From: a virus
Lineage: Duplodnaviria > Heunggongvirae > Uroviricota > Caudoviricetes
Length of the DNA: 6,432 nucleotides
IMG/VR virus record: IMGVR_UViG_3300029241_000122
Location: 1-6,432 of that record
Strand: one strand, 5' to 3'
Made by a program: the position numbers and the translations under genes. Below are positions 1 through 6,381 of this stretch, one piece after another (position 1 is the stretch's first letter; each line of letters begins with the position of its first letter). The notes beneath the pieces are model-generated. The model searched no databases. It was not told the origin of the DNA and was given only the letters and a program-made list of their open reading frames with translations.

Positions 1-221
1 TGATAGAAACAGAAGCCACTGGAGCACCTCAAAAACACCATCATACACTAAATCAGTAAGTTGGCAGCATCACCAACATAATCTGTCGCGAGTGCCGGAA
101 GAGTGAAGCTATGCAGCGTGTACTGGCTTTCTATCAGGGTAATTTTCAGGAGGCGGTACTGTGAGTGAAATTAGCTATCAGGCTTCAATTACCGCTGGCA
201 TTCGCATCAAAGGAGAGGAGC

Positions 222-578
222 ATGGAAATAAAACCAGAGGATGAGTTAAGCAATATCGTTTTATTTCCGGTAAAAGAGGATGACCCTCGTAATCAGGTTA
301 ATTTTCTTTATGAGCCATCGGAAAGACCATATTGTCATCACGCCTCTGTCCGGGTTGACGAAAAAGAGCGTCAGGTCCGCTGTAAAATCTGCGGTGCAGT
401 TGTGGAGCCATTTGACTGGATGCTCTCTGTGGCGAAAAGAGAAACCAGACTGGCAGATGATGTAAGGCTCTTGCGTCAGGAGGAGCGGGAAAGGCGAAAA
501 AATATAGAAAAGCTAATTCAGATTGAGCGTAACGCGAAAGCGCGGATACGCAGGGCGACAAAATCCAGAACTGAATAA
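222..578 (+). CDS. Hypothetical protein, 118 aa, with a Cys/His zinc-ribbon-like motif (PYCHH...x13...CKICG) and a basic coiled-coil-like C-terminus
   Basis: ATG at 222 is preceded by the SD AGGAG (211-215) at 6-nt spacing; stop TAA at 576-578. The ORF track uses an in-frame GTG at 165 (alternative start, 11 nt after AGGAGG 148-153). A 27-codon uORF (GTG 161 to TGA 242-244, SD spacing 7 nt) overlaps the ATG and could be a coupled leader. Function unknown. Confidence 0.6.
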   Translation: MEIKPEDELSNIVLFPVKEDDPRNQVNFLYEPSERPYCHHASVRVDEKERQVRCKICGAVVEPFDWMLSVAKRETRLADDVRLLRQEERERRKNIEKLIQIERNAKARIRRATKSRTE

Positions 579-642
579 TTAAATTTAGCTCTGTTAAAAA
601 TTTAATCCTTAACCGGAGGGATTTCTGCACCCTCAGAACATC

Positions 643-674
643 AGGAGGCCGCCCGAAAGGGCGGTAGTTAAATG
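643..674 (+). promoter_or_regulatory. Structured ribosome-binding site: SD AGGAGG (643-648), then a 6-bp hairpin with GAAA tetraloop (649-664), then ATG (672)
   Basis: CCGCCC GAAA GGGCGG is a perfect 6-bp GC stem with a GNRA loop lying between the SD and the start codon. Linear SD-to-ATG spacing is 23 nt; with the hairpin folded the effective spacing is about 7 nt. No U-tract follows, so it is not a terminator. Confidence 0.35.
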
Positions 675-854
675 CGAAAGTTTAAAATAATTATTGAAAC
701 GGGAATAGCCGGTGGAGATTTCGAGGATGAATTCGAAGTGGATGATGATGCGACGCCTGATGAAATACATGACGAAGCAAAAGATATTTTCTTTAACTAC
801 TGCAATTACTCATATCACGAAATAAAAGACGAAGAGGAAGAACAAAATGGCTGA
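672..854 (+). CDS. Small highly acidic protein, 60 aa (D/E-rich, ends KDEEEEQNG)
   Basis: ORF with ATG at 672 directly after the hairpin-bridged SD. Its stop TGA (852-854) overlaps the next ATG (847) in an ATGGCTGA arrangement. Strongly acidic composition. Function unknown. Confidence 0.6.
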   Translation: MRKFKIIIETGIAGGDFEDEFEVDDDATPDEIHDEAKDIFFNYCNYSYHEIKDEEEEQNG

Positions 855-1023
855 TTTTGGTTCAACTAAATACAACGTCAGTTTTGAAGAATGGCATGAA
901 CTGTTAATGGGCTATGCAGAGTTACGTGGTGGCAGTGCTGCTGATGCTGAAGCATGGCGTGATGATTATGAAGCAGGAAAAACTCCGGTCGAAGCATATT
1001 GTGATGAGTGGGGCGATGAATGA
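847..1023 (+). CDS. Small acidic protein, 58 aa (MADFGSTKYNVSFEEWHELLMGYAELRGG...CDEWGDE)
   Basis: Falls below the 60-aa ORF-track cutoff and was found by hand translation. SD GAGGAAG lies about 7 nt upstream of ATG 847. Its stop overlaps the next ATG as ATGA (1020-1023). Composition is protein-like. Confidence 0.55.
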   Translation: MADFGSTKYNVSFEEWHELLMGYAELRGGSAADAEAWRDDYEAGKTPVEAYCDEWGDE

Positions 1024-1336
1024 GCGAGGTTAATTATCAGGAAGGGCATGAAACGGCGGGGCAAGCAAAAACAGTGGCATGGCGATATCGCTACGTGAAA
1101 AAAAAGGCGTTACGGACTTTCAGGGGAAGTAGTGGTCTGGTGACTGGAAATATGTACCGAAAAAAGAGGATTGTAACGACAGGCCGAACTATGAAATTCA
1201 GGCCTTATTCACTGCCCCGCCAGTCCCGGTTACATCAGAAGAACTGGTTAAAGCTGTGCACTTTTATGAACAACTAAAACGCGAAAATCCACCAGCATCC
1301 GGAAACCTGATTACAGATTCCCAGATAAGGCAATGA
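1020..1336 (+). pseudogene. Frame-disrupted ORF: N-terminal part in frame 0 (MSEVNYQEGHETAGQAKTVAWRYRYVKKK...), C-terminal part in the -1 frame (...DWKYVPKKEDCNDRPNYEIQALFTAPPVPVTSEELVKAVHFYEQLKRENPPASGNLITDSQIRQ, stop 1334-1336)
   Basis: Frame 0 after the A8 run (1098-1105) turns R/K-rich and junk-like. The -1 frame from 1133 to 1336 reads like real protein but has no start codon. Two in-frame A_AAA_AAG heptamers lie at 1100-1106 and 1160-1166. Either a homopolymer frameshift pseudogene or a -1 frameshift site. Confidence 0.4.
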
Positions 1337-1432
1337 GCTACCTGGCGCAGAACGGGCTGATAAGTATGGGGAATGTTTTACGATGAATATTTAGACTAAA
1401 GAGTTTGTAACGCTATGTAAGTGATTTTTTCT

Positions 1433-1460
1433 GGTTTAGATATTTATATGTCCGGCCAAA
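1433..1460 (+). repeat. Left copy of an imperfect ~30-bp direct repeat (GGTTTAG-ATATTTA-TATGTCCGGCCAAA)
   Basis: Matches the right copy at 1704-1735 over the blocks GGTTTAG (7/7), ATATTTA (7/7) and TGT.CCGG.CAAA. The two copies bracket the AT-rich islet that carries the small membrane protein gene. Confidence 0.5.
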
Positions 1461-1506
1461 TTGAGGTGTGTTTAAATGTAATTGCACATTGATTGTAGGA
1501 GGAATA

Positions 1507-1686
1507 ATGAAAAACGCATTGCAGTTTTTGTTTGTTGCGTTCTGGTTGTTCGTATCATGTATGCCCATCATCTTCACAGCAAGGTATATGGAAAAAGTTG
1601 ATGTTTTGATATTAATATTTGGATATATAAATGCCCTTTTTTTAGGGGTGTTCATGGCGGTCATGTGCATTGAATACTGGCGGTAA
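1507..1686 (+). CDS. Small membrane protein, 59 aa, with two predicted hydrophobic helices (MKNALQFLFVAFWLFVSCMPIIF...VDVLILIFGYINALFLGVFMAVMCI)
   Basis: Strong SD AGGAGG (1497-1502) lies 4 nt before ATG 1507; stop TAA 1684-1686. The ORF-track start (GTG 1468) is in frame but lacks an SD. Sits in an AT-rich block between the direct repeats. Confidence 0.6.
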   Translation: MKNALQFLFVAFWLFVSCMPIIFTARYMEKVDVLILIFGYINALFLGVFMAVMCIEYWR

Positions 1687-1703
1687 ATACAGCGAACGCC
1701 ATT

Positions 1704-1735
1704 GGTTTAGTTGGATATTTACTGTGCCGGACAAA
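1704..1735 (+). repeat. Right copy of the imperfect direct repeat (GGTTTAG-TTGG-ATATTTA-CTGTGCCGGACAAA)
   Basis: See the left copy at 1433-1460. This copy carries an extra TTGG and lies just upstream of the predicted hok promoter. Confidence 0.5.
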
Positions 1736-1741
1736 AACGGT

Positions 1742-1769
1742 TTGCGGGGAAATCTTAGTTAAGTAGAAT
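1742..1769 (+). promoter_or_regulatory. Candidate sigma70 promoter of the hok mRNA (-35 TTGCGG 1742-1747, 16-bp spacer, -10 TAGAAT 1764-1769)
   Basis: The predicted transcript start near 1776 begins GGGTGCTTGAGGCTATCTG..., which resembles the 5' end of plasmid R1 hok mRNA (GGCGCTTGAGGCTTTCTG..., recalled from memory). The leader around 1900-1945 also resembles the R1 hok leader (GATAGCCTCTTAC...AAGGAGAAG). Confidence 0.45.
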
Positions 1770-1888
1770 GACTGCGGGTGCTTGAGGCTATCTGTCTCAG
1801 GCATGAACACCAAAAGGCAGATAGAGAAAAGCCCCAGTTAACATTACGCGTCCTGCAAGACGCTTAACATTAATCTGAGGCCATATCT

Positions 1889-1948
1889 ATGCGACACATA
1901 GAGATTAGCCTCTTACGGACCGAAAGGTCAAGGAGAAGCAGGCTATGA
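1889..1948 (+). CDS. mok-like 19-codon leader ORF translationally coupled to hok (stop TGA overlaps the hok ATG in CTATGAAG)
   Basis: ATG 1889 to TGA 1946-1948, 4-nt overlap with the hok start. Position matches mok in hok/sok loci, but the ORF is much shorter than R1 mok. Confidence 0.4.
   Translation: MRHIEISLLRTERSRRSRL
1902..1931 (-). promoter_or_regulatory. Candidate Sok-like antisense promoter (minus strand: -35 TTGACC, 18-bp spacer, -10 TAATCT)
   Basis: The reverse complement of 1902-1931 reads TTGACC-N18-TAATCT. Transcription would run leftward from about 1895, antisense to the mok-like start region, as the Sok RNA does in hok/sok systems. No clean terminator was found for it. Confidence 0.3.
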
Positions 1949-2109
1949 AGCAGCAAAAGGCGATGTTAATCGCCCTGATCGTCATCTGTTTAACCGTCAT
2001 AGTGANNNNNNNNNNNNNNNNNNNNNNNNNNNNNNNCCTCTGCGAGGTATGAATCCGAACCGGCCAGACGGAGGTCGCTGTCTTCACAGCTTACGAACCT
2101 GAGGAGTAA
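1945..2109 (+). pseudogene. hokD: Hok/Gef family type I toxin gene (HokD/RelF-like), interrupted by a 31-N run and carrying an in-frame TGA at 2050-2052
   Basis: N-terminus MKQQKAMLIALIVICLTVIV matches HokD as recalled. After the N-run the frame reads LCEV-TGA-IRTGQTEVAVFTAYEPEE-TAA, i.e. the conserved Hok C-terminus with TGA where Arg (CGA) is expected. SD AAGGAG lies about 10 nt upstream of the ATG. Confidence 0.65.
2006..2036. other. Run of 31 N (unresolved or masked bases) inside the hok ORF
   Basis: Seen directly in the sequence. If the length is exact, the hok frame is preserved across it. Confidence 0.95.
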
Positions 2110-2178
2110 GAGACCTGGCGGGGGAGAAATCCCTCGCCACCTCTGATGTGTCAGGCATCCTCAACGCACCCGCACTTA

Positions 2179-2204
2179 ACCCGCTTCGGCGGGTTTTGTT
2201 TTTT
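2179..2204 (+). terminator. Rho-independent terminator at the hok mRNA 3' end
   Basis: ACCCGC-TTCG-GCGGGT hairpin (6-bp stem, UUCG tetraloop) immediately followed by TTTGTTTTTT. A second GC-rich hairpin lies upstream at about 2113-2136. Confidence 0.8.
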
Positions 2205-2276
2205 CCTGGCATTCTGGTTTACAATTCGCACGTCAGCCTGAACACCTGACACCTGCTGCGCCAGCAGAGAAAACAG

Positions 2277-2549
2277 ATGGCGCACAAAACCAAATTTCAC
2301 AATTCTGATACCGACCTTGCCATCCGGCATGAGCGGCGTTCACACGCATTTAAAACCGACTGGTACCAACACCCACCATGTACTGAAGAACAGGCCGAAT
2401 GGCTGATTCATTCTTACCGCAGGCGCGGGTTCGAGGTTAAGAAAGCTCTCAGTCTCGACTATCGGCACTGGATAATCTCTGTCAGGCTGCCTTATTCCGA
2501 ACGCCCACCACGTCCGTCCCGCACTTTCCAGCAACGGATCTGGAGGTAA
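2277..2549 (+). CDS. Hypothetical protein, 90 aa; possibly the N-terminal part of a disrupted gene that continues in the 2551 frame
   Basis: ATG 2277 has a weak SD and an in-frame stop just upstream at 2247. The C-terminal residues (PPRPSRTFQQRIWR) look out-of-frame, and the next ORF frame is already open from 2476. Confidence 0.35.
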   Translation: MAHKTKFHNSDTDLAIRHERRSHAFKTDWYQHPPCTEEQAEWLIHSYRRRGFEVKKALSLDYRHWIISVRLPYSERPPRPSRTFQQRIWR

Positions 2550-2550
2550 C

Positions 2551-2958
2551 GTGCGGGTATTACTTAGACCTGTTCTGGTGCCTGAGCTTGGGCTGGTGGT
2601 CCTTAAGCCGGGCCGTGAATCCATACAGATATTTCATAATCCTCGAGTGCTGGTGGAGCCGGAACCGAAAAGCATGCGTAATCTGCCGTCCGGGGTTGTT
2701 CCTGCCGTTCGCCAGCCGCTAGTGGAAGACAAAACATTGCTGCCGTTTTTCAGTAACGCACGGGTGATTCGTGCTGCTGGTGGTGCTGGTGCATTGTCTG
2801 ACTGGCTGTTGCGCCATATTAAATCCTGCCAGTGGCCACACGGCGATTATCATCACAGCGAAACCGTCATTCACCGTTATGGTACCGGCGCAATGGTGTT
2901 GTGCTGGCACTGCGACAACCAGCTGCGTGACCAGACAGGCGACCGCAATCATTACTGA
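2551..2958 (+). CDS. Cys/His-rich, zinc-binding-like C-terminal domain protein (CQWPHGDYHH...CWHCDNQ); resembles DUF968-type lambdoid prophage proteins (YdfU/YdaW-like), probably a fragment
   Basis: Starts at GTG 2551; stop TGA 2956-2958 abuts the ATG of the Rz fragment. The family assignment is from memory and unverified. Confidence 0.45.
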   Translation: MRVLLRPVLVPELGLVVLKPGRESIQIFHNPRVLVEPEPKSMRNLPSGVVPAVRQPLVEDKTLLPFFSNARVIRAAGGAGALSDWLLRHIKSCQWPHGDYHHSETVIHRYGTGAMVLCWHCDNQLRDQTGDRNHY

Positions 2959-2959
2959 C

Positions 2960-3265
2960 ATGCAGATACGCCAGCGTGATGTTGCTGCACTCGATGCAAA
3001 ATACCTGAAGGAGTTAGCTGATGCGAAAGCTGAAAATGATGCTCTGCGTGATGATGTTGCCGCTGGTCGTCGTCGGTTGCGCATCAAAGCAGTCTGTCAG
3101 TCAGTGCGTGAAGCCACCGCCACCTCCAGCGTGGATAATGCAGTCTCCCCCAGACTGGCAGACACCGCTGAACGGGATTATTTCACCCTCCGGGAACGAC
3201 TGGTAATGATGCAGGCCCAACTTGAAGGTGCTCAGCAATACATAACCGAACAGTGTTTAAAGTAA
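2960..3265 (+). pseudogene. rzpR: N-terminally truncated Rz i-spanin (lysis gene remnant)
   Basis: Translation ...ITDMQIRQRDVAALDAKYLKELADAKAENDALRDDVAAGRRRLRIKAVCQSVREATA...DYFTLRERLVMMQAQLEGAQQYITEQCLK closely matches the C-terminal two-thirds of lambda Rz. The N-terminal TM segment is missing. The longer track ORF from 2771 is an out-of-frame read of the upstream gene. Confidence 0.75.
3021..3206 (+). CDS. rzoR: Rz1 o-spanin outer-membrane lipoprotein, embedded in the +1 frame of Rz
   Basis: MRKLKMMLCVMMLPLVVVGC with lipobox VVGC, proline-rich PPPPPAW segment, 61 aa, near-identical to lambda Rz1 as recalled. SD AAGGAG lies 7 nt upstream of ATG 3021. Confidence 0.8.
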   Translation: MRKLKMMLCVMMLPLVVVGCASKQSVSQCVKPPPPPAWIMQSPPDWQTPLNGIISPSGNDW

Positions 3266-3402
3266 AATCTTAACTACAATATGATTCATTTTGATGATTG
3301 TTTCATAAGGAACAGTGAAGTAAGATCTAAGAGGAGTTAAATTTTATACAGTATAATCATAATATTGCAGCAAGGTGGTTATAATTGAAAGAATATTTAG
3401 AT

Positions 3403-4860
3403 ATGAATACATCTCATGTAAGAGTTGTTACTCATATGTGTGGGTTCCTGGTTTGGCTCTATAGTCTTTCAATGTTGCCACCAATGGTTGTAGCATTGTT
3501 TTATAAAGAAAAAAGCCTGTTCGTTTTCTTTATAACTTTCGTTATATTTTTTTGCATTGGTGGCGGAGCGTGGTATACAACTAAGAAATCTGGCATTCAA
3601 TTACGTACCCGTGATGGGTTTATTATAATTGTAATGTTTTGGATTTTGTTTTCTGTTATTAGTGCATTCCCTTTATGGATTGACTCAGAACTTAATTTAA
3701 CGTTCATTGATGCTCTGTTTGAAGGGGTTTCTGGAATAACAACAACAGGAGCAACTGTAATTGATGATGTTAGTTCATTACCTCGGGCATATTTGTACTA
3801 TCGGTCACAGTTAAATTTTATAGGTGGTTTAGGAGTTATTGTTCTGGCGGTTGCAGTATTGCCATTATTGGGTATTGGTGGTGCAAAGCTTTATCAGTCA
3901 GAAATGCCGGGGCCATTTAAGGATGACAAACTCACTCCCCGCCTGGCCGATACGTCACGGACACTGTGGATAACTTATTCTTTATTAGGTATTGCTTGTA
4001 TTGTCTGTTATAGACTTGCAGGAATGCCTTTGTTTGATGCTATTTGTCACGGGATTTCCACAGTTTCGCTTGGTGGTTTCTCAACTCATAGCGAGAGTAT
4101 CGGATATTTTAATAACTATTTGGTTGAGCTGGTGGCTGGTGCTTTTTCCCTGCTATCGGCTTTCAACTTTACTCTTTGGTATATTGTTATTAGCAGAAAA
4201 ACGATAAAACCTTTAATCAGAGATATTGAACTTCGTTTCTTTCTGTTAATAGCCTTAGTGGTGATCATTGTTACCTCTTTCCAGGTCTGGCATATAGGTA
4301 TGTATGACTTGCATGGAAGTTTTATTCATTCGTTTTTTCTTGCCAGCTCCATGCTCACTGATAATGGTTTAGCTACGCAAGATTATGCAAACTGGCCCAC
4401 GCACACGATAGTGTTTTTGCTGTTGTCAAGTTTCTTTGGGGGATGTATAGGTTCAACTTGTGGTGGAATTAAGTCACTTCGATTTCTTATACTTTTCAAA
4501 CAAAGCAAACACGAGATAAATCAGCTTTCTCATCCCAGAGCGTTGTTGAGTGTAAATGTAGGAGGGAAGATAGTTACAGATCGTGTAATGAGGTCTGTAT
4601 GGAGTTTCTTTTTTCTTTATACTCTCTTCACGGTGTTTTTTATACTGGTGTTAAATGGTATGGGATATGATTTTCTTACATCATTTGCAACAGTGGCTGC
4701 ATGTATTAATAATATGGGATTAGGTTTTGGGGCTACTGCATCGTCATTCGGAGTGCTTAATGACATTGCAAAATATTTAATGTGCATAGCTATGATTCTT
4801 GGTCGCCTTGAAATTTATCCTGTTATTATATTGTTTTCAGTTTTTTTTTGGCGCTCCTAA
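3403..4860 (+). CDS. trkG: TrkG, Trk-system K+ uptake membrane protein (TrkH/TrkG family), 485 aa
   Basis: Translation from ATG 3403 (MNTSHVRVVTHMCGFLVWLY...) matches E. coli TrkG as recalled and aligns with TrkH motifs (GATxxxxxSLP, EMPGP, GGxGSTxGG). Markedly AT-rich relative to flanks. An upstream TTG at 3385 preceded by AAGGTGG is an alternative start. Confidence 0.9.
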   Translation: MNTSHVRVVTHMCGFLVWLYSLSMLPPMVVALFYKEKSLFVFFITFVIFFCIGGGAWYTTKKSGIQLRTRDGFIIIVMFWILFSVISAFPLWIDSELNLTFIDALFEGVSGITTTGATVIDDVSSLPRAYLYYRSQLNFIGGLGVIVLAVAVLPLLGIGGAKLYQSEMPGPFKDDKLTPRLADTSRTLWITYSLLGIACIVCYRLAGMPLFDAICHGISTVSLGGFSTHSESIGYFNNYLVELVAGAFSLLSAFNFTLWYIVISRKTIKPLIRDIELRFFLLIALVVIIVTSFQVWHIGMYDLHGSFIHSFFLASSMLTDNGLATQDYANWPTHTIVFLLLSSFFGGCIGSTCGGIKSLRFLILFKQSKHEINQLSHPRALLSVNVGGKIVTDRVMRSVWSFFFLYTLFTVFFILVLNGMGYDFLTSFATVAACINNMGLGFGATASSFGVLNDIAKYLMCIAMILGRLEIYPVIILFSVFFWRS

Positions 4861-4943
4861 TATATGGCTGATTTATAATTGTGAGTTTAATATTATATTG
4901 ACTCACTCATTGATCCAATACCTAACTTTACCAGCAACACCTC

Positions 4944-4980
4944 CGCCCCCAGTAGCACTGGCTGCTGGGGTGCGTTTTAT
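4944..4980 (+). terminator. Putative intrinsic terminator downstream of trkG
   Basis: Stem CCCCAGTAGC / GCTGCTGGGG (10 bp with one G-U pair, loop ACTG), extendable by 3 bp with one bulge, followed by TTTTAT. It lies only about 18 nt before the next start codon, so it may be a partial terminator or attenuator. Confidence 0.45.
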
Positions 4981-4997
4981 TCATAAAGCAAGGCTGT

Positions 4998-5786
4998 ATG
5001 AGCGAGAAATTAAAGATAGTCTATCGCCCATTACAAGAATTGTCACCGTATGCGCACAACGCCAGGACGCACAGTACTGAGCAGGTGGCACAACTGGTAG
5101 AAAGTATTAAGCAATTCGGCTGGACTAATCCGGTGCTGATTGACGAAAAGGGCGAAATTATTGCGGGTCACGGTCGTGTTATGGCGGCTGAAATGCTCAA
5201 AATGGATTCTGTTCCGGTCATTGTTCTGTCTGGCCTGACGGATGAGCAGAAAAAGGCGTACCGCTTGGCAGATAATCGCCTACCGATGAATGCTGGCTGG
5301 GATGAAGATCTGTTGCGGATGGAGCTGTCGGTCCTAATCAATGCTGATTTTGATGTCTCCCTGACAGGCTTCGGCCCGACAGAAATTGATGAACTGTTGA
5401 CGGATGTTTTGCCCGGTATAGGAAATAAGGAGGAGCCGTATACGACGAAAATTGATACGCCTGTTTATGAGCCGTCGGGCGGTAAACCGGATATCAGTGA
5501 ACTGTACGACGATACGAAAACTCAGGAGCTGATCAGCCGGATACGTTCGGCGTCCCTTGATCCTGATATTGAGAAATTCCTCCTGTGTGCGGCAGAACGT
5601 CACACGGTGTTTAATTTCAGCAGAATTGCGGACTATTACGCTCATGCCCCCGCTGAAATTCAGTGCCTTTTCGAGGAGTCGGCGCTGGTGATCATTGATT
5701 ATCAGCAGGCTATTGAAAATGGATTTGTCCGAATGACGCAGCGCATGGTGGAGATCATGCATGGCGGGGAGGAGGAATATGCGTGA
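4998..5786 (+). CDS. ParB-like N-terminal domain (ParB/Srx fold, ParB-like nuclease type) protein, 262 aa, with an uncharacterised C-terminal half
   Basis: N-terminal about 95 aa (KIVYRPLQELSPYAHNARTHS...IIAGHGRVMAA...VIVLSGLTDEQKKAYRLADNRL) fits the ParB-like nuclease domain pattern. May correspond to an intact version of the Rac ynaK region (unverified). Its stop overlaps the next gene start. Confidence 0.75.
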   Translation: MSEKLKIVYRPLQELSPYAHNARTHSTEQVAQLVESIKQFGWTNPVLIDEKGEIIAGHGRVMAAEMLKMDSVPVIVLSGLTDEQKKAYRLADNRLPMNAGWDEDLLRMELSVLINADFDVSLTGFGPTEIDELLTDVLPGIGNKEEPYTTKIDTPVYEPSGGKPDISELYDDTKTQELISRIRSASLDPDIEKFLLCAAERHTVFNFSRIADYYAHAPAEIQCLFEESALVIIDYQQAIENGFVRMTQRMVEIMHGGEEEYA

Positions 5787-6381
5787 TGATTTTTGCGCCT
5801 TTATTCTGACTCACGGACGACCGGAAAAAGTTCTGACTTACCGGACGTTGCGTCGTGCTGGCTATACCGGGAAAATTTTTATCGTTGTTGATGATGAAGA
5901 TAAGACACGGCATCAGTACATGGCTGAATTTGGTGAACAGGTGCTGGTATTTTCCAAAGCCGATATCGCCAGTCGTTTTGACGAAGCCGATAATTTTGGT
6001 GACCGCCGCTCAATTTTTTACGCCCGTAATGCCTGTTTCGACCTGGCAAAACTGGTCGGGTGTAAATACTTCATTCAGCTCGATGATGATTATCACGAGT
6101 TCCAGTTTCGGGTGGATCGCAACTATGACCAGGCCTATTTCCCGATAAGGAAACTGGATGCGATCCTTTCTGAAATGCTGGCGTATTACGAATCAATACC
6201 CGCGCTTTCCATCGCTATGTCGCAGGGCGGGGATTTTCTTGGTGACAATGGCGGCCATGCTTCGTGGGTGAAACGCAAGGCAATGAACAGCTTTATCTGT
6301 TCGGTTGATCGACCGTTCTCATTCATGGGGCGCATTAACGAGGATGTGAATACGGGTAATGCTGCCAACTTACTGATTTAG
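5779..6381 (+). CDS. GT-A fold glycosyltransferase-like protein (family-2-like), about 200 aa
   Basis: Motifs CAFILTHGRP...KIFIVVDDED and RRSIFYARNACFDLAKLVGCKYFIQLDDDY fit the GT2 pattern (strand-helix-strand with acidic patch, then ARN...G.Y..LD.DD, the DxD motif). Strong SD GGAGGAGG before ATG 5779, which overlaps the ParB-like stop by 8 nt. An in-frame ATG at 5761 is an alternative start. Confidence 0.6.
   Translation: MRDDFCAFILTHGRPEKVLTYRTLRRAGYTGKIFIVVDDEDKTRHQYMAEFGEQVLVFSKADIASRFDEADNFGDRRSIFYARNACFDLAKLVGCKYFIQLDDDYHEFQFRVDRNYDQAYFPIRKLDAILSEMLAYYESIPALSIAMSQGGDFLGDNGGHASWVKRKAMNSFICSVDRPFSFMGRINEDVNTGNAANLLI

What the first reader, a model, noticed from the sequence alone, without database searches (positions are those of the whole stretch)
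1742..2204. Apparently complete hok/sok-type regulatory architecture outside a relBE context
The locus has a predicted promoter (TTGCGG-N16-TAGAAT), a 5' leader resembling R1 hok mRNA (GCTTGAGGCT... and ...AGCCTCTTAC...AAGGAGAAG), a short mok-like ORF coupled to hok by an ATGA overlap, a minus-strand TTGACC-N18-TAATCT that could drive a Sok-like antisense RNA over the mok start, and a strong terminator. K-12 hokD sits directly downstream of relBE with no sok or mok of its own. Here a HokD-like toxin has its own leader, and no relB or relE lies upstream.
Basis: partly seen in the sequence, partly recalled or inferred. Interest (0 to 1): 0.45.

Follow-up and report, generated by a model that had tools for sequence, protein, structure and literature searches.

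The report
Prophage hok/sok locus with broken toxin
This is an ordinary, already known kind of hok/sok toxin-antitoxin cassette in a decayed Rac-type prophage of E. coli; its RNA control elements are all intact, but a premature stop codon cuts the toxin gene short.

Summary
These are the hok promoter hexamers (1742-1769), the hok-type leader (1776-1944), a 19-codon mok-like ORF ending in ATGA (1889-1948), the minus-strand TTGACC-N18-TAATCT (1931-1902) and a terminator (2178-2204). Homology to the hok family is firm: Rfam RF01794 gives a full-length match of 106.7 bits. The full-length mRNA folds with its 5' end paired to a 3' fbi box, and that pairing covaries across genera. There is no relBE in the window or within 9 kb upstream in the nearest genome.

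The arrangement is not unusual. About 3,500 E. coli records carry a leader at least 90% identical. A close relative, hokW-sokW of prophage Sp5, has been tested experimentally. K-12's leaderless relBE-hokD is the derived form, with homology beginning only at window position 1931.

This leaves a 32-residue peptide, which is probably not toxic. The allele is rare: 5 of 5,426 complete genomes. The N-run (2006-2036) hides 22 real bases.

Verdict: already known, low interest.

The parts
1742..1769 (+). Putative hok mRNA promoter: -35 TTGCGG (1742-1747), 16-nt spacer, -10 TAGAAT (1764-1769)
   Evidence: Sequence. The -10 lies 6 nt upstream of the family-conserved mRNA 5' end and is conserved across related loci, whereas the -35 is not. 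It falls below the threshold of the consensus scan.
1776..2204 (+). Full-length hok mRNA, about 420 nt of real sequence. The window span is 9 nt too long because of the N-run.
   Evidence: The Rfam sok/hok-leader model starts at 1776 and the terminator ends near 2204. The unmasked equivalent L001:6177-6595 folds at -173.4 kcal/mol, z = -8.2.
1776..1789 (+). tac element (GGGTGCTTGAGGCT) at the mRNA 5' end
   Evidence: Aligns with the 5' ends of R1, hokC and hokB mRNAs. It has three alternative partners: a neighbouring metastable partner from 1793 (-17.8 kcal/mol), ucb (-16.7) and fbi (-21.5).
1821..1895 (-). Predicted Sok-like antisense RNA, about 75 nt. It has a single-stranded 5' tail over the mok start, one long hairpin and a U-rich 3' tail.
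   Evidence: The annotated ends of K-12 SokC, SokB and SokE all map by alignment to 1894/1895 (5') and 1821/1822 (3'). The fold is -31.9 kcal/mol, z = -5.7. sokW of Sp5 has 71 nt of complementarity to its mRNA (PMC8621323). Expression was not tested.
1902..1931 (-). Putative Sok promoter: -35 TTGACC (1931-1926), 18-nt spacer, -10 TAATCT (1907-1902). The predicted start G at 1895 lies 6 nt downstream of the -10.
   Evidence: Sequence. It occupies the same positions as the Sok promoters of related loci in the alignments. It falls below the threshold of the consensus scan.
1875..1881 (+). mok Shine-Dalgarno region (CTGAGGC), paired with the anti-SD GCCCCAG (1831-1837) in the closed mRNA
   Evidence: MFE structure of the full-length mRNA. 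The SD/anti-SD concept comes from PMC9841398.
1889..1948 (+). mok-like leader ORF: 19 codons (MRHIEISLLRTERSRRSRL) with a TGA stop that overlaps the hok ATG (ATGA)
   Evidence: The start lies 56 nt before the hok ATG. Related loci use -56, -57 or -58, so all three frames occur in the family.
1907..1916 (+). ucb box AGCCTCTTAC
   Evidence: Identical to the box in R1-type and most related loci. The duplex with tac is -16.7 kcal/mol, and 4 of 500 shuffles reach that value.
1945..2052 (+). hok (HokD-type) reading frame, cut short by TGA at codon 33 (2050-2052). The product is the 32-residue MKQQKAMLIALIVICLTVIVTALVTRKDLCEV. Positions 2006-2036 are a 31-N mask over 22 real bases.
   Evidence: Pfam HOK_GEF matches only 27 of 42 model positions. 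RefSeq annotates the same allele as a 32-residue 'Hok/Gef family protein', WP_000813248.
2053..2109 (+). The now untranslated remainder of the ancestral hokD frame (IRTGQTEVAVFTAYEPEE, TAA at 2107-2109)
   Evidence: It differs by one base (T for C at 2050) from the intact hokD locus of ST131 strain EC958 across 692 bp.
2159..2171 (+). fbi box CCTCAACGCACCC, complementary to the mRNA 5' end
   Evidence: Paired with positions 1-12 in the MFE and centroid structures of the full-length mRNA. The pairing is conserved 45-56 nt after the stop codon in about 38 loci, with compensatory changes.
2178..2204 (+). Intrinsic terminator: AACCCGCTTCGGCGGGTT followed by TTGTTTTTT

Best explanation
The region is a hok/sok-family type I toxin-antitoxin cassette of the HokD/HokW type. 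It sits in its usual place in a lambdoid prophage, here a decayed Rac-type prophage, between the replication-region genes and the DUF968/RusA/Q block.

How it would work (inferred from the R1 model):
1. A weak promoter (1742-1769) makes a stable mRNA of about 420 nt. The mRNA is held closed because its 5' tac element pairs with the 3' fbi box.
2. Slow 3' trimming removes fbi, and tac then switches to ucb.
3. This frees the mok ribosome-binding site. Ribosomes translate the 19-codon mok ORF into the hok start region and terminate at AUGA, which lets hok be translated.
4. A short unstable antisense RNA (about 75 nt, 1895 to 1821 on the minus strand) pairs with the mok start region. That blocks translation and triggers RNase III cleavage.

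In this copy a CGA-to-TGA change at hok codon 33 removes the 19-residue periplasmic C-terminal part. The RNA circuitry is intact, but the toxin is most likely inactive, so this is a decaying copy.

Shown here: homology, all sequence elements, the tac/fbi fold and its covariation, absence of relBE, and the nonsense codon and its rarity. Inferred: transcription of both RNAs, 3' processing, translational coupling, and loss of toxicity.
For: - Rfam RF01794 gives a full-length match at 106.7 bits.
- The leader aligns with R1-type hok, hokC and hokB.
- The 692 bp around the locus differ by one base from loci annotated hokD in ST131 and other strains.
- The O157:H7 locus L009 carries four of the five hokW-sokW primer sequences I checked, and its leader is 89.6% identical to the window's. 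hokW-sokW is experimentally validated (PMC8621323).
- The full-length mRNA MFE and centroid both pair 5' GGGUGCUUGAGG with 3' CCUCAACGCACCC, z = -8.2.
- The same pairing is kept in about 38 loci with compensatory changes. Position 4 is U:A or C:G (Photorhabdus, Pantoea). Position 7 is U:A or C:G (hokB). Position 11 is G:C or A:U (Citrobacter L055). Position 12 is G:C or A:U (Kluyvera).
- The ends of annotated SokB, SokC and SokE map to 1895 and 1821, and that RNA folds as a Sok-like hairpin.
- In R1, translating mok only as far as the hok start region is sufficient (PMC9841398), so a 19-codon mok fits the model.
- The nonsense allele is an exact match in only 5 of 5,426 genomes, against 1,267 records for the sense allele.
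- Loss of toxicity is expected. In R1, 18 of the 20 possible single-substitution stop codons in hok were recovered as loss-of-function mutations. Replacing the Gef C-terminal region with PhoA gave a non-toxic protein (cited in PMC8509063).
- The genomic context is the Rac prophage at ttcA.
Against: - No expression data exist for this locus.
- Both promoters fall below a plain consensus threshold.
- In the predicted fold of a 3'-shortened mRNA, the tac/ucb pairing is 6.3 kcal/mol above the MFE, which uses the neighbouring metastable hairpin instead. The activating switch is therefore not reproduced by thermodynamic prediction alone.
- Toxicity of a Hok peptide cut at residue 32 has not been measured directly. 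The supplementary table listing which R1 stop codons were recovered was not available.
Confidence: 0.85

Rival explanations
1. The locus is a fully active toxin-antitoxin system. The 32-residue peptide (transmembrane helix plus RKDLCEV) would still damage the membrane, so the nonsense codon would not matter.
For: The peptide keeps the whole transmembrane segment and matches the first 27 positions of Pfam HOK_GEF. Saturation mutagenesis shows that the HokC transmembrane region contributes to activity (PMC8509063). All regulatory elements are unchanged relative to intact loci.
Against: Premature stop codons in R1 hok were recovered as loss-of-function mutations at 18 of 20 possible codons, and even small C-terminal additions abolish toxicity. 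Replacing the Gef C-terminal region with PhoA gave a non-toxic protein. The C-terminal Tyr/Cys site linked to a disulfide needed for toxicity is lost (bioRxiv 10.1101/2025.08.07.668861). The allele is rare, at 5 of 5,426 genomes, as expected for a recent inactivating mutation.
Confidence: 0.1
2. The whole cassette is an inert relic. Neither RNA is made at a meaningful level in this degraded prophage, and the intact-looking elements only reflect too little time for decay.
For: Both promoters score 8 of 12 and the consensus scan finds none. The surrounding prophage is degraded, with a truncated DUF968 gene fused to an Rz remnant and, in the nearest genome, an IS1. Chromosomal hok loci tested earlier did not mediate post-segregational killing (bioRxiv 10.1101/2025.08.07.668861).
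Against: The 692 bp are identical, apart from the one nonsense base, to loci with intact hokD. The homologous hokW-sokW locus has comparably weak hexamers (its Sok -10 reads TAACCT) yet yields detectable hokW and sokW RNAs (PMC8621323). hok promoters are typically weak by design (my own knowledge of the R1 system).
Confidence: 0.05

Closest known systems
hokW-sokW of Sakai prophage 5 (Stx2 phage Sp5), E. coli O157:H7 (PMC8621323)
   Same: It is a lambdoid-prophage hok/sok locus with its own leader and no relBE. In O157:H7 locus L009, which carries four of the five hokW-sokW primer sequences I checked, the leader is 89.6% identical to the window's, including the 16-nt extension of the Sok hairpin, and the tac and fbi boxes are the same. 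That L009 toxin is identical to HokD over residues 1-44. The antisense RNA has about 71 nt of complementarity.
   Different: hokW has an intact 51-residue toxin with a different C-terminus (VDYESEK). Its mok start is 57 nt upstream and in frame with hok, whereas here it is 56 nt upstream and gives a 19-codon ORF ending at ATGA. The roughly 20 nt around the mok start, which form the Sok 5' tail, differ. Here the toxin carries a nonsense codon.
hokD (relF) of E. coli K-12, Qin prophage, downstream of relBE
   Same: From window position 1931 to the terminator the two are 87% identical over the alignment, which includes the mask. HokD has the same 51 residues as the un-mutated form of this gene, and the fbi box and terminator are the same.
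   Different: K-12 has relE directly upstream and lacks the promoter, tac, mok, ucb and Sok unit. K-12 also has rem downstream, which is absent here. The K-12 toxin frame is intact, while this one stops at codon 33.
hok/sok (parB) of plasmid R1
   Same: The set of elements is the same and in the same order: tac, metastable partner, mok SD/anti-SD, mok, ucb, hok SD, hok, fbi and terminator, with an antisense RNA over the mok start (model as described in PMC9841398).
   Different: R1 is plasmid-borne. R1 mok is a 70-codon ORF overlapping hok, against 19 codons here. The toxin is only distantly similar, and the Sok hairpin is 16 nt longer here. Post-segregational killing has been shown for R1 only.
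hokC (gef)/mokC/sokC of E. coli K-12
   Same: Among the K-12 loci and the R1-type locus aligned, hokC has the leader most like the window's, with the same tac sequence and a very similar hok SD region. The annotated SokC ends map onto the predicted Sok here.
   Different: hokC is a chromosomal locus outside prophages. mokC is an in-frame N-terminal extension of hokC. The K-12 copy is interrupted downstream by IS186.

Membership tests
[quoted passage not shown] | Hok/Gef-family toxin reading frame (Pfam PF01848) | tested here: met
   The 32-residue product scores 44 bits against a cutoff of 22. The 51-residue un-mutated form scores 82.9 bits.
[quoted passage not shown] | Full-length toxin of about 50 residues, including the periplasmic C-terminal part | tested here: not met
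   TGA at codon 33 (window 2050-2052). Only 27 of 42 Pfam model positions are covered. The locus is therefore a family member by descent but probably a toxin pseudogene.
[quoted passage not shown] | Conserved hok mRNA leader (sequence plus structure) | tested here: met
   Rfam RF01794, model positions 1-157 of 157, 106.7 bits against a gathering score of 59. The alignment with R1-type hok, hokB and hokC agrees.
[quoted passage not shown] | Long-range tac/fbi pairing that closes the full-length mRNA | tested here: met
   Present in the MFE and centroid structures. It is conserved with compensatory changes in about 38 loci.
[quoted passage not shown] | ucb box able to pair with tac after 3' processing | tested here: inconclusive
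   The box AGCCTCTTAC is present and complementary to tac: -16.7 kcal/mol, reached by 4 of 500 shuffles. However, the tac/ucb fold of a shortened mRNA is 6.3 kcal/mol above the predicted MFE.
[quoted passage not shown] | mok leader ORF that starts within the Sok target and is translated up to the hok start region | tested here: met
   A 19-codon ORF at 1889-1948 ends at ATGA. Its start position (-56) lies within the family range of -56 to -58.
[quoted passage not shown] | Cis-encoded antisense Sok RNA with its own promoter, a single hairpin and a U-rich tail | tested here: met
   Met at the sequence level only. The promoter hexamers lie at homologous positions, the ends of SokB, SokC and SokE map to 1895 and 1821, and the fold has z = -5.7. 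Expression could not be tested.
[quoted passage not shown] | 3' processing of the mRNA, RNase III cleavage of the duplex, and toxicity or post-segregational killing | not testable with these tools
   These require experiments. They have been shown for R1 and partly for hokW-sokW (PMC9841398, PMC8621323).
relBE-hokD operon arrangement (K-12 Qin type) | relB and relE immediately upstream of hokD, with no hok leader | tested here: not met
   Homology to K-12 begins at window position 1931. tblastn with RelB and RelE finds nothing in the window or in 24 kb of the nearest genome. The upstream ORFs are phage families.

The most novel reading that the evidence does not exclude
The cassette may be kept as an 'antitoxin-only' RNA module. 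With the toxin dead but the Sok unit and hok leader intact, the resident Sok RNA could silence the identical hok allele of an incoming or co-resident lambdoid phage. For hokW, the toxin helps phage release, so silencing it could serve as a form of prophage-versus-phage interference. Alternatively, the 32-residue membrane peptide could have a new, non-lethal role. A related point concerns intact alleles with the same leader, such as ST131. They use a 19-codon mok that terminates exactly at the hok AUG, a natural termination-reinitiation variant of mok-hok coupling that has not been studied.
Probability: 0.06. Interest if true: 0.4.

Novelty: already known. Interest (0 to 1): 0.1.

Why it matters
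It matters little beyond annotation. The result shows that K-12's leaderless relBE-hokD is the derived exception and that the self-contained hokD/hokW-type cassette is the usual prophage form. It also flags this copy as a toxin pseudogene whose regulatory RNAs may still be made. That is relevant for anyone counting 'active' type I toxin-antitoxin systems, or reading Sok-like antisense transcripts in RNA-seq data from such strains. Finally, the natural spread of mok starts (-56, -57, -58) is comparative support for the published view that mok translation matters and the Mok peptide does not.

Tried and rejected
- The plain sigma-70 consensus scan of 1600-2350 found no promoter on either strand, so the hexamers alone are not evidence. 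I relied on positional homology instead.
- Folding a 3'-shortened mRNA did not give the tac/ucb structure as the MFE. I left this as inconclusive.
- I looked for the FASTBAC-Seq supplementary table to see which R1 hok stop codons abolish toxicity, but no supplements are held.
- The weak isrK hit at 2118-2199 (27 bits against a gathering score of 50) is the hok 3' UTR hairpin plus terminator. I treated it as chance.
- I first assumed ORF 2277-2549 was a Rem homologue. tblastn with K-12 Rem found nothing and the ORF belongs to phrog_1212, so I dropped that idea.
- One PHROG call failed because of a wrong frame and was repeated.
- I considered that the TGA might be a sequencing error. I rejected this because five independent complete genomes carry the identical allele.

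Full report
**What is in the sequence.** The window is E. coli DNA. Its best match is strain EC24, identical over positions 112-6354. In EC24 the region lies inside the Rac prophage integrated next to ttcA. The gene order there is intR, xisR, ralR, recT, recE, racC and kil, followed by the genes of this window and then trkG and ynaK. The finding's region, 1742-2204, contains a run of 31 N (2006-2036). Genomes identical on both sides of the run have 22 bases there, so the mask does not preserve length and positions after 2036 are 9 too high.

**Checking the observation.**
- TTGCGG-N16-TAGAAT at 1742-1769.
- GGGTGCTTGAGGCT at 1776-1789.
- AGCCTCTTAC at 1907-1916.
- AAGGAG at 1930-1935.
- A 19-codon ORF from ATG 1889, whose TGA (1946-1948) overlaps the hok ATG at 1945.
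- TTGACC-N18-TAATCT on the minus strand at 1931-1902.
- A terminator at 2178-2204.

The two promoters each match 8 of 12 consensus positions, and the plain consensus scan reports none. Taken alone, they are not beyond chance.

The leader is far beyond chance. Rfam family RF01794 ('sok', whose model covers the hok mRNA leader strand) matches 1776-1947 over its whole length at 106.7 bits, against a gathering score of 59.

**Homology and anatomy.**
[quoted passage not shown] It is most like hokC.
- K-12 hokD is homologous only from window position 1931, which is 14 nt before the hok ATG, through to the terminator. Upstream of that point K-12 has relE.
- The annotated ends of K-12 SokC, SokB and SokE all map by alignment to 1894/1895 (5') and 1821/1822 (3') on the minus strand.
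- That predicts an RNA of about 75 nt whose first base lies 6 nt downstream of TAATCT. It folds as one long hairpin with a free 5' tail and a U-rich 3' tail (-31.9 kcal/mol, z = -5.7).
- The hairpin is 16 nt longer than the Rfam consensus. The same extension is present in the O157:H7 prophage loci.

**RNA structure tests.** I folded the unmasked full-length mRNA (L001:6177-6595, identical to the window outside the mask).
- Its first 12 bases pair with CCUCAACGCACCC (window 2159-2171) in both the MFE and the centroid structures (-173.4 kcal/mol, z = -8.2). This is the fold-back (tac/fbi) closure described for R1 (PMC9841398).
- Across about 38 related loci from Escherichia, Shigella, Kluyvera, Citrobacter, Pseudocitrobacter, Photorhabdus and Pantoea, the best partner of the 5' end in the 3' UTR lies 45-56 nt after the stop codon.
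- The pairing is kept through compensatory changes. Position 4 is U:A or C:G. Position 7 is U:A or C:G in hokB. Position 11 is G:C or A:U in Citrobacter. Position 12 is G:C or A:U in Kluyvera.
- The same 5' element can also pair with the adjacent segment from 1793 (-17.8 kcal/mol, the 'metastable' hairpin) and with ucb (-16.7 kcal/mol, reached by 4 of 500 shuffles).
- In a 3'-shortened RNA the tac/ucb fold is 6.3 kcal/mol above the predicted MFE. The activating switch is therefore plausible but not demonstrated by prediction.

**The mok-like ORF.** In 40-odd related loci an ATG lies 56, 57 or 58 nt before the hok ATG.
- At -57, the commonest position, the ORF is in frame with hok. Examples are mokC and the hokW-type loci.
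- At -58 it overlaps hok out of frame and encodes 55-69 residues, as in mokB.
- At -56 it gives a 19-codon ORF that stops at ATGA. This is the form in the window, in ST131 and also in the hokC loci of E. ruysiae and E. whittamii.

Because hok begins ATG-AAR, any -56 variant ends at ATGA. The ATGA overlap is therefore a by-product of the reading frame and not a special device. Published work on R1 shows that mok must be translated up to the hok start region and that translation beyond it is unnecessary (PMC9841398). A 19-codon mok is thus compatible with normal coupling.

**The toxin.** Unmasking shows the frame MKQQKAMLIALIVICLTVIVTALVTRKDLCEV followed by TGA, where intact loci have CGA (Arg33). 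The rest of the ancestral frame follows, untranslated.
- Across 692 bp this is the only difference from the locus annotated hokD in ST131 strain EC958.
- RefSeq annotates the window's allele as a 32-residue 'Hok/Gef family protein'.
- An 84-base probe across the site matches exactly in 5 of 5,426 complete genomes. The sense-codon version matches exactly in 1,267 records.
- The peptide covers 27 of the 42 Pfam HOK_GEF positions.
- Loss of toxicity is inferred from published work. In R1, 18 of the 20 possible single-substitution stop codons were recovered as loss-of-function mutations, and a C-terminal tag abolishes toxicity. Replacing the C-terminal region of Gef with PhoA gave a non-toxic protein (cited in PMC8509063). 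The C-terminal Tyr/Cys site linked to a disulfide needed for toxicity is lost.

**Is the arrangement unusual?** It is not.
- The leader (1742-1960) has a best match of at least 90% identity in about 3,540 E. coli records.
- The same cassette sits between the replication genes and the DUF968/RusA/Q block in lambdoid prophages of TUM9803, ST131 EC958 and O157:H7.
- Of the related loci whose upstream sequence I inspected, nearly all carry a leader with the same elements. Two have relE directly upstream instead, an E. coli locus (L013) and a Kluyvera locus (L034).
- The K-12-type relE-hokD junction occurs in 1,173 of 5,426 genomes.
- No RelB or RelE homologue exists in the window or in 24 kb around the nearest genomic match. 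The neighbouring ORFs belong to phage protein families.
- A close homologue, hokW-sokW of prophage Sp5, has been shown to be a type I toxin-antitoxin system with a detectable Sok RNA that depends on RNase III and Hfq. It aids phage release after induction (PMC8621323).
- The O157:H7 locus L009 contains four of the five primer sequences from that paper that I checked, and its leader is 89.6% identical to the window's.
- Enrichment of hok genes in prophages has also been reported (bioRxiv 10.1101/2025.08.07.668861).

**Verdict.** It is not a surprising arrangement, however: it is the common and presumably ancestral form, and K-12's hokD is the truncated derivative. The novelty rating is 'already known' and interest is low.

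Noticed in passing
window 2006-2036: The 31-N mask replaces 22 real bases (ACGGCACTGGTAACGAGGAAAGA-type sequence in identical genomes). Coordinates downstream are therefore shifted by +9, and an ORF tool reports 11 unknown codons where there are really 8.
   Followed up: yes
window 1507-1686 (+): An unannotated 59-residue, strongly hydrophobic ORF (two predicted helices) with an AGGAGG ribosome-binding site lies just upstream of the hok promoter. It has no Pfam or PHROG match, and RefSeq annotates nothing here in the genomes inspected.
   Followed up: partly
window 1880-1900, and loci L001, L009-L011, L014, L017-L019: Among otherwise near-identical prophage hok/sok loci, the most variable transcribed stretch is the roughly 20 nt around the mok start, which is the 5' tail of Sok. 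This would limit cross-talk between co-resident loci, and it explains why the mok start shifts between -56, -57 and -58.
   Followed up: partly
window 2551-3265: The N-terminal part of a DUF968/HNH-type protein (phrog_96) is fused to the C-terminal part of an Rz spanin (Pfam Phage_lysis). An embedded Rz1-like lipoprotein ORF lies at 3021-3206. This deletion joint is like ydaW-rzpR-rzoR of K-12 Rac.
   Followed up: partly
window 4998-6381: A ParB_N-domain protein (ynaK-like) is followed by an ORF matching the TET-associated glycosyltransferase family (PF20691, E = 8e-30), which RefSeq annotates as 'GREB1-related protein'. The pair is reminiscent of phage DNA-modification modules.
   Followed up: no
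window 2118-2199 (+): There is a weak match to the Salmonella prophage sRNA family isrK (27 bits, gathering score 50). It covers the hok 3' UTR hairpin and the terminator and is probably only a resemblance in architecture.
   Followed up: no
L034 (Kluyvera sp. CHPC 1.2972), about 1300-1503: A K-12-type junction, with relE-like sequence running straight into the hok start region, also occurs in a Kluyvera genome. The relBE-hok fusion is therefore not confined to E. coli.
   Followed up: no
L024 (275 bp) and L029 (431 bp): Near-identical E. coli-type hokD sequence sits on tiny contigs labelled Acinetobacter idrijaensis and Xanthomonas pisi. This is most likely contamination of those assemblies.
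   Followed up: no
L003 4652-4903 versus window 2205-2276: K-12 Qin has the rem gene between hokD and the DUF968 gene. The window lacks rem, and its ORF at 2277-2549 belongs to phrog_1212, a region not annotated in K-12.
   Followed up: partly
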